Shown in pieces: positions 15,001 through 21,000 of a DNA stretch of 64,000 bases. The position numbers are program-made. Each line of letters opens with the position of its first letter. Within the stretch, counting starts at the first letter, position 1. Origin of the DNA: Vulcanimicrobiota bacterium (GTDB lineage: Bacteria; Vulcanimicrobiota; Vulcanimicrobiia; Vulcanimicrobiales; Vulcanimicrobiaceae); contig OY970223.1 of assembly GCA_963714015.1 (NCBI GenBank), positions 3,360,001 to 3,424,000 of the forward strand. Reading direction: 5' to 3'.

Positions 15001-18000
15001 TTGCTCTGCCGCAAACGTCGTGAACCAAGGTTCGCGAAATCCTTGCAGGCCCGAAGGACGTTCCCCGGCCAGCTGCAGCGGAGCGTTATACGCATCATCG
15101 GCCTGCGACTGGGAGACGTATCCGCTCTGAGCCATCCGATCGAGCACATGACGCTGCCGTTCGCGCGAGAGTTGCAAATCGACGTAAGGTGAGTAATCCG
15201 AGGGCGCCGCGACCAACCCCGCAAGCAGCGCTGCTTGTCCGACAGTAAGTTTGTCGACGCCGCGTCCGAAGTATGTGTGCGCGGCAGCATCGACGCCGTA
15301 TGCGCCCGATCCCAAGTAGATCAGATTCAAGTACCGCTCGAGGATCTCGTCCTTGGTGTAGTAACGGTTGATCTCCATGGCGAGCAGCGCTTCTTGAATC
15401 TTGCGCGAGATCGTCTGCTGGTCGGTCAGGAAAAGCCCGCGCGCGAGCTGCTGCGTGATGGTGGAGGCACCCTGCTCGATATGATGATGCAGCAGGTCGT
15501 CGATGCCCGCGCGCATGATTCCGCCGAAATCCACGCCGTTGTTGGAGTAGAACGTATGGTCCTCGTTCGCGATGAAAGCATCGCGCACGATGGGCGGAAT
15601 CTTGTCGATGGGCACCCAGATGCGGTTCTCTTTGAAAAGGTTTGCCAGCAGCGATCCGTCGCGCGCGTAAATACGCGTCGAGCGAGCGGGCTGATAATCG
15701 GCCATGCGGCTGATGTCGGGCAGGTTGCGCGAATAGGCCGCCACGATGCCGGCGACCGAACCGGAGACGAAGAGCACGATCAACAACAGCGCGACCGCGC
15801 AGAAACGTAAGAATCTACGCATGGCCGTTTGCCGCCTTCACCGAGGAGAGCACGCCGTTGACGAAGCGGCCCGAGTCCTCGGTCGAGAAGCGCTTTGCCA
15901 ATTCGACCGCTTCATTGATTACGACGGGGCCTGGGGTCCCAGGATGGTAGCGCAGTTCGAACGTTGCCATGCGAAGGAGTAAACGGTCGATCGTCGGCAG
16001 TCGTTCGATAGTCCAGCCTTGAAGCAGCGGCGAGAGCGTCTCGTCACTCTCTTCGGAGTGCTCGAGCGTCCCAAGAACGAGCTCCTTCACGAACAGGCGT
16101 TGCGCCGATTCGCTGAACGTCGCCAGATATTCCTCGAGCACTTCAGCGGGATCGCGATGCCCGACTTCGACGGAGAAAAGCGCCTGCAGCGCGAGTTCGC
16201 GGGCCATCCGGCGTGTGGGCATGCCGTTTGCCTAGACCCGTTCCTGCATCAGCGCCGGCAAGAAGTCGATGGCGTAATGCCCGGATCTGAACTGCTCGGT
16301 TCCCAGGATCTCCAAACATTGCTCGATCGTCGTGTTGACGCCCTCGACGACCGTTTCACGCAGCGCGCGCTCCATGCGGGCGATCGCGGCTTCGCGCGTC
16401 ACTCCCACCGCCACGATCTTCGCAATCATCGAGTCGTAGAACGGCGGCACTGTGGCACCGGAGTACACCGCAGTGTCGACGCGAATACCCGGGCCTCCCG
16501 GGAACGCGACGCTCGTGAGCGTTCCGGCTGCCGGCGCAAAGTTATTGCGCGAATCCTCCGCGTTTACCCGGCATTCGATGGCATGGCCGACCGGTTTGAG
16601 ATCGGACTGCGTGTAGCCCAGCGACTCGCCCGCCGCAACGCGGATCTGCTCCTTGACCAAGTCGATGTTGTACACCATCTCGGTAACCGGATGCTCGACT
16701 TGTATGCGCGTGTTCATCTCCATGAAATAGACTCGTTCGTCCGCAACGAGGAACTCGAGGGTACCCGCATTGCTGTACTTCACCGCCTTGGCCGCGCGAA
16801 CCGCCATATCGAGCAGCGTTTGACGCGCCTTGGCCGGAAGATTCGAAGCCGGCGCCTCCTCGATCAGCTTCTGGTGCGACGGCTTCTGCACGGAGCAATC
16901 GCGCTCGCCCAAATGCAGCACGTTGCCGAAGTTGTCGCCGAGAATCTGCACTTCGATATGGCGCGGCTTTACGATCAATTTTTCCAGGTAGAGGCGACCG
17001 TCTTTGAAACCGGCTTCGGCTTCCGCCGTAGCCGAATCGAAAGCGCGTTCCAGGTCGTCGGGGGAACGCACCTCGCGCATTCCCTTCCCCCCGCCGCCCG
17101 CTGTGGCTTTGAGCAAGACGGGATACCCGATTTGCTCCGCCGCGAGCTTGGCTTCTTGCGCCGAAGGCAAGATGTCGGTTCCCGGCGTCGTTGCGACGCC
17201 GGCTTCCTTCATGACGCGCTTTGCCGTCGCCTTATCACCCATTGCGGCGATGACGTCCGGCTTGGGACCGATGAACGTTAGAGCGTGGTCCGCACAGATC
17301 TCCGCAAACCGGGCGTTCTCGGCGAGAAACCCGTACCCGGGATGGACGGCATCGCAGCCGGTGATCAGGGCAGTCGAAATGATGTTCGGAATGTTCAAAT
17401 AGGAACGTTGAACTGGTCCCGGGCCGACGCAAAACGCCTCATCCGCATGGCGCACATGCAGCGAATGTCTATCGGCTTCGGAGAAAATCGCGACCGTTAG
17501 CACGCCGAGCTCGCGGCAAGCGCGGTTGATGCGCAACGCGATTTCACCGCGATTCGCGATAAGCACCTTTTTAAACAAGGGGACGAATCTCCCCGGCGCC
17601 CGCGAGCGCAGTTTGACGGCGCGCAGTCTGAGGTCGCAGCGCCTGTTCAACGGGAAAGCTCGAACAGGACTTGGCCGTACTCGACGGTTTGGCCGTCCCG
17701 GCACTTTACGGATGCGACGCGGCCCGGGCCCAGCGAACGGATGGGATTCCGGATGCCGAGTGCCTCCACGTAGCCCAGTTCGCGGTCCCCTTCCAGGCGA
17801 TCGCCGGTGTCGACGGGGTGGCGGCTGAAATGAAAGATGCCGACCAAATCAGCCTTGATGAGTTCGAGCGGCTCGGGCGGCGCTTGCGGCTGCCCGTCCG
17901 AAGCGGGCGCGGCGGCGCGCCGAACCGGTGCGCTCGCCGGTTTGCGCAGTTCCACCGAGTTCTTTTCGGCGTCTTCGATTCGCAAACGGACGAGGTCCGT

Positions 18001-21000
18001 GTCGATGAATGCTTCGGTCAGCGTACGGACGCGCTCAATCAGGGCCTCGTCGGACATGAGCGCTACCGATTCGCCTCCCTCCAGCGGAAAAACTCCCGCA
18101 CGCTCGCTTGGCTCGAGGGCCTGCACTGCAGGAGCAAAACTTGGGTCGAGCTCCGCGAGCGGCAGCAGCGCGAACGCCCGCTCGAACAGGCGCGGGTGAG
18201 GGATCTGCAGATCGGCCTCGTTCACCATGACCTCGCCATAGAGCAAGATGTCCAAATCTAGGACGCGCGGTCCCCACCGCGGCCCCTCGACGCGTCCGAG
18301 CTCGTTTTCGATTTGCTTGAGCCCGGCGAGGAGCTCCCGCGGTTGCGTTTCCGTTTCGATGAGGGCCACGGCGTTGTAAAAATCCGGCTGATCGGCGACG
18401 CCCCACGGTTTGGATCGATAGAGCCGCGAAACCGCGAGAACGCGGCCAAATCGTTTCAACGATCGAACGGCGCAGCGTAATAATCGCACGGAGTCGCCCA
18501 GATTGGAACCCAGTCCTATTGCAGCGCGAACGCTCAACGGCGCACGTTGGGATTTTCTCGCCGCAGCCCAACACTCGGCGTTGCGCCGTCCAACAGCTCC
18601 GGTTTTGCGACGCGCACATGCGCGGCAACGATGCGATCGTTCGTGAAAATCGCCTCGAGAATCGCCTCCGCCAGCCCTTCCAGCAGCGCAAAAGAACGAG
18701 ACTGCACGGTTCGAACCACAGCCGCATGGACCGCCGCATAGTTCACGGTATCCGACAGGTCGTCACTGCGCGCAGCCGCAGCGAGGTCCGCTTCCATTTC
18801 CAAATCCACGACGAACGGCTGCTCTCGATCGCGTTCGCCCGGGTTGACCCCATGTTTACCGTTCACGCGAATGTTCCGCAGAGCAATCACGTCCATCCCG
18901 CCGGCCTCCAATTGCGGACAATCGCGTCCGCGACGCTCACTGCGTCCCGCGCGGCTTCGACGTCGTGAACCCGAACGACGTCGATGCCTGCAGCGACCGC
19001 CAGCGCCGTGGTTGCGGTCGTTCCAAAGATGCGGTCGTCCGGGCGTTTCCCGGTCAGTTTGCCGATTGTCGATTTGCGCGAGGTGCCGATTAACGTAGGA
19101 AATCCGAGTTTCGGCAGCCGGTGCAGATCGCGCAGCACTTCCAAGTTATGATCGGCCGTCTTTCCGAAGCCGATGCCGGGATCCAAAATCACGCAATCCG
19201 GTCGCATGCCCGCGCGAACGGCGCGCTCCGCCGCTTCGGAGAGAAACTGCAGCACTTCGTCCATGACGCTGCCGCGGTAGACCGGCTCGGATTTGTTGTG
19301 CATGACAATCACGGGCGCACCGGCTTGCGCTGCCGCTTGCAGCAGCGAATCCGTCAAGCCCCAAATGGAGTTGAGCATATCGGCTCCGGAAGCGACCGCG
19401 GCCCGAAAGACGCCGGCTTTATAAGTGTCTGCGGAGATTACTGCATCGGGCAGCGCTTTACGGATTCCTTCGACTACCGGAAGCAAACGCGCGCGCTCGA
19501 TCTCCTCGTCGACTGCAACGTGTCCCGGGCGCGTGGACTCGGCCCCGACGTCCAAGAGGTCCGCGGATCGCGCGTGCTGCCGAATGCCGTGCGCTATCGC
19601 CTGCGCCGCGTCCGGTAAACCATCGCCTGAAAAGGAGTCCGGCGTCACGTTCACCACGCCCATAACGTAGGTGCGCTGGCCCCACACGAGCGTGCGCCCG
19701 CGTATCCGCAGCGCGCCTCGTTTTTCAGCGGGAGGATTGAGCGGCGACGACATGCTCCATCCACCATTCGCGCAACTCGGCGACGACGAACGTCGATCCC
19801 GTTACGACGATAAGGTCGTCGGCGGACGCGTTGCGTCGCGCGATCGTGAGCGCCTCGACCGGATCTGCAATGGCGCGCCCCCAAATGCCGAATGACTCGG
19901 CGATGCTCGCCAGACGCTGCGGCTTGGCTGCAGTTCGGCCCTGCGTTTCGAACGACGTGAAGATGTAGGAAGCGGAAAGGTCGCCGAAAGCGCGCAGAAT
20001 CTCGTGCGCATCCTTGCTTTCACCAATCGCGATCACGAATGTGTACCGTTTATCCGGAAACGTTTGCTTTAGGGCGGCCACGAGATGCGCTGCCTTATCC
20101 GGATTGTGCGCAACGTCGAACACGACGCCCGGATGGGAAGAGAAGTATTCCATGCGCCCCATCAACCGCGTTGCCGACAGACCGCGCTCTACGTCTTCCT
20201 TATTCGGGCGGAGCGTCTCGGGAAGCTGCTCGAGCGCGAGGATCGCCGTTGCAGCATTGAGTCGTTGAAAGTCCCCCAGCAACGGAAGAGCAACGTCGTA
20301 TTTTGCCTGCGGTGTGGATACGGTGAAGTGCTGCCCGCCGTATCCGGTCTCGTCGATCAGCGTTATATGCACGCTGTCGGGGACGGAGATGAACGGCGCG
20401 CCGGCGCTGCGGCACGCCTCCTCGATAACAGCGCGAGCGCCGGCGTGATCGACGGCGCTGACCAGCGGTACCCCGGGTTTCGCTATTCCGGCTTTGTCGG
20501 CGGCGATCTCTTCCAGCGTGTCGCCGAGAATCTCCATGTGATCCAGACCTACGTTCGTAATGATGCTCACGCGCGGGCGCAGCACGTTCGTACCGTCAAG
20601 CTTTCCGCCGATCCCCACTTCGATTACGGCGGCGTCGACACGCTCGTTCGCAAAATATGAAAACGCCAGCGCCAGCAGCGTCTCGTAATAGGAAGGGCGC
20701 GAAAACCGTTGCGTCGTCGATTCGATTGCCGGCATCATTGCAGTGAGGAGATCCGCGAACGCCTCTTCGGAAATGGCTGCGCCGTCGATTTGCGCGCGCT
20801 CGACTATCGATTGCAAGTGCGGCTTTGTATGCAGGCCGGTCCGCCGCCCGGACGCGGTCAGTACCGACGCGATCATCGTCGAAGTGGAGCCTTTTCCGCT
20901 CGTCCCTCCAACGTGCACCGCAGGATAGGCGTTTTGCGGTTCGCCCAGCTCGTGCACGAACGCCAGCATCCGATCCAACCGGGTGGGCTGGCGGCGTGAG

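What a model noticed while it worked through the whole genome (the two positions that open the first line are those of the whole stretch)
16232..18537. Biotin-less BCCP paralogue (BADC-like) occupies the accB slot beside accC, fused to FolK
The gene before accC (g03634) ends in a full-length BCCP-like protein whose biotinylation motif reads EALGI instead of EAMKM, here fused behind FolK. The biotin-accepting AccB (EAMKL) lies elsewhere (C1:753463). A non-biotinylatable ACCase partner, known as plant BADC, is thus a trait of this phylum.
Evidence so far: 39 of 40 family genomes (15); 20 of 20 loci directly upstream of accC, none with Lys, 9 in frame with FolK (18); 116 of 120 database homologues read E/DALGI (22, 24); NCBIfam BCCP 3e-9 (19). 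In other families 6 of 7 accC-adjacent copies also lack the Lys while a normal AccB lies elsewhere (215, 218).
(Added by a program. Inside this text positions count along the whole contig: contig position 3,360,001 is position 1 of the stretch shown here. "Call 12" and the like, gene names such as g00115 and contig names such as C1 are that model's own, and its searches are not shown. The text may have been shortened before it was handed on; [...] marks where a part breaks off. The agent that wrote the report below was given it as the finding of a first reader that could run no searches.)

Follow-up and report, generated by a model that had tools for sequence, protein, structure and literature searches.

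The report
Biotin-less docking subunit beside biotin carboxylase
These soil bacteria appear to have split the biotin carrier of their fatty-acid starter enzyme into two proteins, one that carries biotin but has lost its docking surface and one (this gene) that keeps the docking surface but cannot carry biotin, much like the helper subunits so far described only in plants.

Summary
Confirmed. Window 17647-18537(-) is FolK read through into a full-length AccB paralogue (Met161, 18057) with Gly at the biotin lysine and no 'thumb', directly before accC. Named relatives are Vulcanimicrobiota. New here: a reciprocal loss. The accC-adjacent copy keeps the residue that docks E. coli BCCP on biotin carboxylase (aromatic 148: 137 of 137); the displaced biotin-bearing AccB has lost it (0 of 66), while outside homologues keep it (101 of 101). 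Best reading: a non-catalytic docking/assembly subunit that tethers AccB, working like plant BADC; binding is inferred, not shown (complex prediction unavailable). Two corrections: the lysine is not always missing (8 of 15 copies in a sister order read EALK, interchanging with EALR), and the FolK fusion is secondary (35 of 100 loci; the gene keeps its own ATG and a SigH-like promoter). Lysine-less relatives also occur in Armatimonadota and Ktedonobacteria; one origin or several is unresolved. Kinship with BADC could not be tested. No bacterial report found in 10 searches, but four key BADC papers were not readable. This scan noted such lysine-less copies before on other DNA (five notes).

The parts
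17647..18057 (-). Lysine-less AccB paralogue ('X', 136 aa from Met161): N-terminal helix-strand-strand module, Ala/Pro linker, biotinyl fold with EALGI, no thumb, docking motif V-E-Y-G kept
18058..18537 (-). folK (HPPK), intact catalytic motifs, no stop codon of its own: reads in frame into X
18068..18097 (-). SigH-like promoter inside the folK 3' end: G(G/T)-N18-CGAA, the GAA 15 nt before the ATG of X (this genome has GT, most relatives GG, at the upstream box)
   Evidence: SigH homologue; spacing as in C. difficile SigH promoters
16232..17578 (-). accC, biotin carboxylase of the heteromeric ACC (likely start TTG at 17578); hydrophobic docking patch F49/V51/P53/I72 present
15815..16222 (-). 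nusB, the usual gene after accB-accC
18534..21053 (-). folC-folP-folB, upstream folate genes whose transcript would give the FolK-X fusion

Best explanation
After a duplication of accB the two jobs of the biotin carrier were divided. The copy left in front of accC (X) lost the biotin lysine and, in this class, the thumb, but kept the surface with which E. coli BCCP sits in the non-catalytic docking site formed by biotin carboxylase and the AccD N-terminus (V88, acidic 147, aromatic 148). The copy that moved away (AccB) kept the lysine and thumb and lost that surface. Both keep the N-terminal helix-strand-strand module predicted to oligomerise. So X is most likely a fifth, non-catalytic subunit of the heteromeric ACC: it docks on AccC/AccD and holds the biotin-bearing AccB in the complex through mixed N-terminal oligomers, leaving AccB free to swing between the active sites. 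It works like the 'glue' reading of plant BADC. Shown: anatomy, gene order, residue patterns, co-occurrence. Inferred: every contact and the effect on activity. The FolK fusion is a secondary read-through; X is probably also made alone from its own promoter and ATG.
For: Docking residues named in the E. coli ACC tube structure. X: aromatic 148 in 137 of 137, acidic 147 in 135 of 137, V88 in 133 of 137, Lys122 in 8 of 137; a further copy found by position alone shows the same. Displaced AccB: aromatic 148 in 0 of 66, P145 in 0 of 66, acidic 147 in 19 of 66, Lys and full thumb span in 66 of 66. Control: outside homologues fetched with the AccB profile keep aromatic 148 in 101 of 101 and acidic 147 in 99 of 101. 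AccC keeps a hydrophobic 49/51/72 and invariant P53; AccD keeps a Trp-Leu anchor with Arg five residues on. X and AccB align over the whole length, N-terminal module included (prob. 99%; fold). X lies directly before accC in 99 of 100 f1/f2 loci, 15 of 15 f3 and 23 of 23 other-class loci. X and AccB occur together: 15 of the 17 genomes without AccB also gave no match to the X profile, and all six of these that were tested lack accC or AccA. Plant parallel: Arabidopsis BCCP1 has Ser at the 147 position and did not bind BC alone.
Against: No binding, stoichiometry or activity was measured or modelled. 67 of the 137 X rows came from a scan whose pattern demanded V[ED]YG, and the others from profiles that favour it, so the 137 is partly circular (70 rows are pattern-free). 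Genomes are related, so the counts are few independent events. M121/M123, which also contact AccD:BC in E. coli, are kept better by AccB than by X. 8 of 15 f3 copies have Lys and might be biotinylated. In 48 Ktedonobacteria-like loci the lysine-less gene has no accC in the fetched flank. The paper read describes the 4HR7 BC-BCCP contact as ionic and hydrogen-bonded, not hydrophobic, at odds.
Confidence: 0.6

Rival explanations
1. X is a dummy carrier that inhibits or tunes ACC by occupying biotin carboxylase in competition with AccB (the 'inhibitor' reading of BADC).
For: Plant BADCs were reported as inhibitors in vivo (passages). The invariant L-G-x-R loop at the former biotin hairpin in this family suggests a specific contact. 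An alternative-sigma promoter could give regulated expression.
Against: The same promoter would also drive accC. AccB has lost the docking residues in 66 of 66 cases, which is expected if it needs an adaptor, not a competitor. The hairpin is free to vary in the other class.
Confidence: 0.22
2. The FolK fusion is itself functional and ties folate synthesis to the ACC complex.
For: 35 of 100 loci are fused, with 12 different linker lengths, all in frame, against one locus of this family where folK runs out of frame over the start; FolK motifs are intact in the fusions.
Against: 65 of 100 loci are not fused; at least 6 changes on the tree; no fusion among the 15 f3 and 23 other-class loci read; Met161 kept in at least 90% of 16 fused proteins; promoter motif kept irrespective of folK; model shows a disordered junction, pLDDT under 50 at 155-165; a second folK exists in this genome.
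Confidence: 0.08
3. X carries biotin or another group after all, on another lysine or (in f3) on the EALK lysine, and serves as a second carrier.
For: 8 of 15 f3 copies have Lys at the canonical place.
Against: No Lys is among the invariant or nearly invariant columns of 30 family sequences; 100 of 100 f1/f2 and 24 of 24 other-class copies lack Lys122; two same-genus f3 copies differ by K versus R.
Confidence: 0.06
4. X is a decaying relic of the old accB with no function.
For: It evolves faster than AccB (branch lengths) and scores far below the BCCP cut-off.
Against: 18 invariant columns among sequences 42-64% identical; intact across two classes whose AccC proteins are 52-88% identical to this one; conserved promoter and start.
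Confidence: 0.03

Closest known systems
Plant and algal BADC1-3 (biotin attachment domain-containing proteins of plastid heteromeric ACCase)
   Same: BCCP paralogue without the biotinylation motif, beside a biotinylated BCCP in a four-subunit-type ACC; described as 'glue' or inhibitor (PMC11926652, passages and section 3.3). Arabidopsis BCCP1 shows Ser at the position where the displaced AccB also mostly has Ser.
   Different: Called unique to plants in that abstract; X is bacterial, sits in the ancestral accB slot before accC, lacks the thumb in this class and is sometimes fused to FolK. No BADC sequence could be fetched, so common descent is untested; convergence is the default reading.
E. 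coli AccB/BCCP (TIGR00531; PDB 4HR7, 8UZ2)
   Same: Whole-length homology (E 3.6e-10), same fold, same gene slot, docking residues V88/E147/F148 matched.
   Different: Lys122 replaced by Gly, five-residue thumb deletion, 37.7 bits against a cut-off of 115.2; carrier role taken by a separate gene.
Non-catalytic epsilon subunits (AccE) of actinobacterial acyl-CoA carboxylases
   Same: Non-catalytic subunit that assembles and activates a bacterial carboxylase (mentioned in the passage).
   Different: Name and nature recalled: not a BCCP paralogue and belongs to a different enzyme architecture; not compared here.

Membership tests
AccB / BCCP (functional carrier) | Biotin-accepting Lys in (E)AMK(M/L) | tested here: not met
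   EALGI; Gly in 100 of 100 f1/f2 copies
AccB / BCCP (functional carrier) | Thumb loop | tested here: not met
   G89-K122 span 28 in 114 of 114 copies of this class against 33 in AccB; 8 of 23 other-class copies keep the full span
AccB / BCCP (functional carrier) | N-terminal helix-strand-strand module, linker, biotinyl fold | tested here: met
BADC | BCCP homologue lacking the biotinylation motif | tested here: met
   exception: Lys in 8 of 15 f3 copies
BADC | Coexists with a biotinylated BCCP and a heteromeric BC/CT-alpha/CT-beta enzyme | tested here: met
   AccB, accC, accD-accA and birA in this genome; co-occurrence
BADC | Binds BC and the N-terminal region of BCCP | not testable with these tools
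BADC | Changes ACC assembly or activity | not testable with these tools
   needs reconstitution
BADC | Common descent with plant/algal BADC | not tested
   no plant BADC sequence was returned
BADC | Plastid-targeted protein of plants and algae | tested here: not met
   bacterial; named relatives are Vulcanimicrobiota
FolK (HPPK) | Full HPPK domain with catalytic motifs | tested here: met
   TIGR01498 143 bits over cut-off 54; motifs in 32-35 of 35 fused copies

The most novel reading that the evidence does not exclude
Several Terrabacterial lineages (Vulcanimicrobiota, Armatimonadota, Ktedonobacteria) run an obligate five-subunit heteromeric ACC in which docking and carrier roles lie on two BCCP paralogues, and plants reached the same split by the same residue changes; the 147/148 docking patch then explains why plant BCCP needs BADC to assemble with BC and decides the glue-versus-inhibitor dispute.
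Probability: 0.35. Interest if true: 0.88.

Novelty: new variant of a known kind. Interest (0 to 1): 0.76.

Why it matters
Bacterial heteromeric ACC is taught as four proteins, and non-catalytic BCCP look-alikes are described as unique to plants, where their role (assembly glue or inhibitor) is disputed. A phylum-wide bacterial case with a clean reciprocal loss of docking and carrier residues gives a specific, cheap test: swap or mutate three residues in a reconstituted enzyme. It also corrects annotation (these genes are often named BCCP) and predicts that ACC from these phyla will not work when expressed as four subunits.

Tried and rejected
Plant BADC or BCCP sequences: not returned by the PDB searches, the Atlas (only Vulcanimicrobiota clusters shown), or two 'longer' searches (nothing; only about 600-aa bacterial fusions); a motif search of papers found none. 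RNA runs: no RNA holder listed. Looking for the canonical AccB in the Ktedonobacteria- and Armatimonadota-like contigs: records not held. Single origin of the lysine-less copies: trees unresolved (in 112 the eight intended metagenome AccB rows failed to load, 51 rows were used). First genome-wide promoter test used a wrong offset (7 of 182 against 25 of 448) and was redone. PMC5641562, PMC5410604, PMC12706156 and PMC11439503 gave nothing on bacterial BADC. Considered and rejected: fusion as assembly artefact (seen in 35 distinct loci); a Shine-Dalgarno reading of the upstream signal (the conserved bases are CGAA and GG at fixed distance, not GGAG); 'never a Lys' (f3).
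Full report
OBSERVATION. The ORF at 17647-18537 on the minus strand is 296 aa: an HPPK domain (residues 7-132) and a biotinyl domain (242-294). From Met161 (window 18057) the last 136 aa, called X here, align with E. coli AccB over the whole length, with Gly at Lys122 and five residues of the thumb missing; TIGR00531 gives E 2.6e-9 but 37.7 bits against a cut-off of 115.2. The model (pLDDT 86.9) has a helix-strand-strand module, a linker and a biotinyl fold whose best match is the E. coli biotinyl domain 1BDO. Gene order: folC-folP-folB-folK-X-accC-nusB. The genome has one AccB with EAMKL elsewhere, between hisS-like and gmhA-like genes (labels recalled from the translations), accD-accA, birA and two BC-BCCP fusion enzymes. 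The AccB is frameshifted near its end in this assembly; same-genus copies are intact, so an assembly indel is likely.

SPREAD. X matches 59 of 60 and 123 of 123 family genomes; named relatives are Vulcanimicrobiota, mostly Vulcanimicrobiaceae, with six records titled as other phyla. Of 113 family and order loci, one had no start and 12 were duplicates; in the 100 distinct ones all have Gly at the lysine position and 99 have accC within 350 nt, one ending at a contig edge. In the sister order all 15 best hits precede accC, but 8 read EALK and 7 EALR, two same-genus copies differing by K/R. In the other class 23 of the 24 best hits precede accC and none of them has Lys; the 24th genome has a lysine-less gene before accC that the profile missed. 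In a 121-genome sample AccB was found in 104; of the 17 without it, 15 also gave no match to the X profile, one a weak match and one has X; three of these tested lack accC and three lack AccA. One genome has AccB but no X match, with accC at a contig end. So X follows the heteromeric ACC. These tallies include genomes marked unpublished (G008, G019, G021, G028, G041, G051, G157, G196); four rows of the alignments come from them (G019, G021, G028, G157) and no conclusion depends on them.

BEYOND THE PHYLUM. Among the best 150 cluster representatives, 118 of the 148 with a residue at the column lack Lys. Names were looked up for 30 proteins: those with an organism were Armatimonadota (including Armatimonas rosea), Ktedonobacterales/Ktedonobacteraceae, Chloroflexota and one Acidobacteriota MAG. 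Of 107 new homologues of the Armatimonadota-like set 97 lack Lys. In 80 metagenome loci, 48 carry an LN/LQ-type lysine-less gene; 35 of them have both efp and xseA in the flank, none has accC (order aroQ-pepQ-efp-X-xseA). This is the old accB slot (recalled from Bacillus gene order). Trees do not resolve one origin against several.

MECHANISM. In the E. coli ACC tubes BCCP rests at a non-catalytic site; the supplement names BCCP V88 and F148 against BC V49/I51/A65/I72 and P53, P145 and E147 against AccD (K8), and M121/M123 at the AccD:BC interface; the N-terminal modules are modelled as a central barrel that keeps BCCP from diffusing away (PMC11160672). Mapped from Lys122, X keeps an aromatic at 148 in 137 of 137, an acid at 147 in 135, V88 in 133 and P145 in 89 (one partial f3 row was dropped). 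The displaced AccB has an aromatic at 148 in 0 of 66 distinct domains, P145 in 0, an acid at 147 in 19, V88 in 28, and always Lys and the full thumb span. As a control, 101 distinct outside homologues fetched with the AccB profile have Tyr or Phe at 148 in 101 and an acid at 147 in 99, and 3 of the 4 readable extra carriers from other carboxylase clusters in this family keep Tyr (five regions fetched). AccC keeps the hydrophobic patch and invariant P53 in 65 sequences, and AccD has Trp-Leu with Arg five residues after the Trp. X and AccB align across the N-terminal module too. The simplest reading is a division of labour: X docks, AccB swings, their N-terminal modules hold them together. Caveats: 67 of the 137 rows came from a scan that demanded V[ED]YG; kin are not independent; M121 is kept by AccB and not by X in this class; no contact was modelled or measured.

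FOLK FUSION. 35 of 100 loci are fused, 46 have folK separate (18 of them adjacent in this family), 19 have none in the flank. The state needs at least 6 changes on a tree of 90 loci. Upstream of the X start, CGAA lies at exactly -16 in 66 and nearby in 91 of 100 loci; after aligning on the nearest GAA (97 loci, chosen by the script) G is found 21 and 20 nt upstream in 88% and 86%. In this genome the motif occurs 64 times at 12-17 nt before 2859 crude starts, about 11 per position against about 4 elsewhere. The GG-to-GAA distance of 19 nt equals that of C. difficile SigH promoters (PMC7438776), and the genome has a SigH homologue split by a frameshift. So X has its own near-leaderless start; Met161 is kept in fused proteins and the junction is disordered in the model. 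That all 12 linker lengths are in frame may reflect selection for the fusion or merely against a junk tail; not decided.

COMPARISON. BADCs are described as unique to the plant enzyme, lacking the AMKL motif, binding the N-terminal region of BCCP, and acting as glue or as inhibitors (PMC11926652). In that paper's numbering K165 is the biotin lysine and S190 falls on position 147, and BCCP1 did not bind BC alone; this parallels the displaced AccB (Ser in 29 of 66). That BADCs keep an aromatic at 148 is my recollection and was not checked. X therefore works like a BADC by anatomy and context; membership by descent is untested and it is not filed as one.

LITERATURE. Ten searches listed no report of a lysine-less AccB paralogue in bacteria. 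Seen: PMC11160672 parts 1-2 of 4 and supplement part 3 of 5; PMC11926652 passages and section 3.3; passages of PMC11889953, 10.64898/2025.12.30.697075, PMC12706156, PMC5410604, PMC11439503, PMC5641562, PMC7438776; others as listings only. Not readable: Salie 2016, Shivaiah 2020, Ye 2020 and Conrado 2024, the last being a survey of the evolution of these subunits that may mention prokaryotes. Earlier notes of this scan report lysine-less copies beside accC in other genomes, two of them in Limnocylindria; I did not examine those loci, and my reading was written before I saw them.

VERDICT. Real, conserved and broader than stated; best read as a non-catalytic docking subunit of a five-protein ACC (0.6), with an inhibitor as main rival (0.22). 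New variant of a known kind; interest 0.76.

Noticed in passing
G000 genome-wide; e.g. C1:1620805(+), C1:2018467(+), window 18068-18097: A G(G/T)-N18-(C/T)GAA motif sits 12-17 nt before many start codons (64 of 2859 crude starts, about three times background), spaced like SigH promoters; suggests a SigH-type, near-leaderless promoter class in a non-sporulating phylum. SigH homologue at C1:1894901.
   Followed up: partly
L133-L147 (sister order): The accC-adjacent copies carry an acidic C-terminal tail ending in a conserved E-P-P-R-(I/L/M) in most loci, absent in this family.
   Followed up: no
L007 (G000 C1:753481-754500) and L190/L191: accB, its upstream neighbour and sigH are broken by frameshifts in this assembly while relatives are intact: probably long-read indels.
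   Followed up: partly
G000 C1:9386-9739(-): A second, more distant folK domain at the front of a long open frame.
   Followed up: no
L130-L132: In the sister family the folK hit lies about 930 nt upstream and its frame ends just over the start of X, so FolK there is extended by another, unidentified domain.
   Followed up: no
L206, L210, L217, L235, L249, L265, L276: Ktedonobacteria-like contigs keep a lysine-less accB (ESLN/QSLN/EALN, thumb-like loop present) between efp and xseA with accC gone from the slot.
   Followed up: partly
L337-L341: Some family genomes carry an extra accB-accC pair with a carboxyltransferase-like neighbour (carrier motif EVMK), apparently a separate carboxylase.
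   Followed up: no
window 23224-24138 (+): 304-aa ORF after an HD-domain gene with no Pfam match at E 0.01.
   Followed up: no
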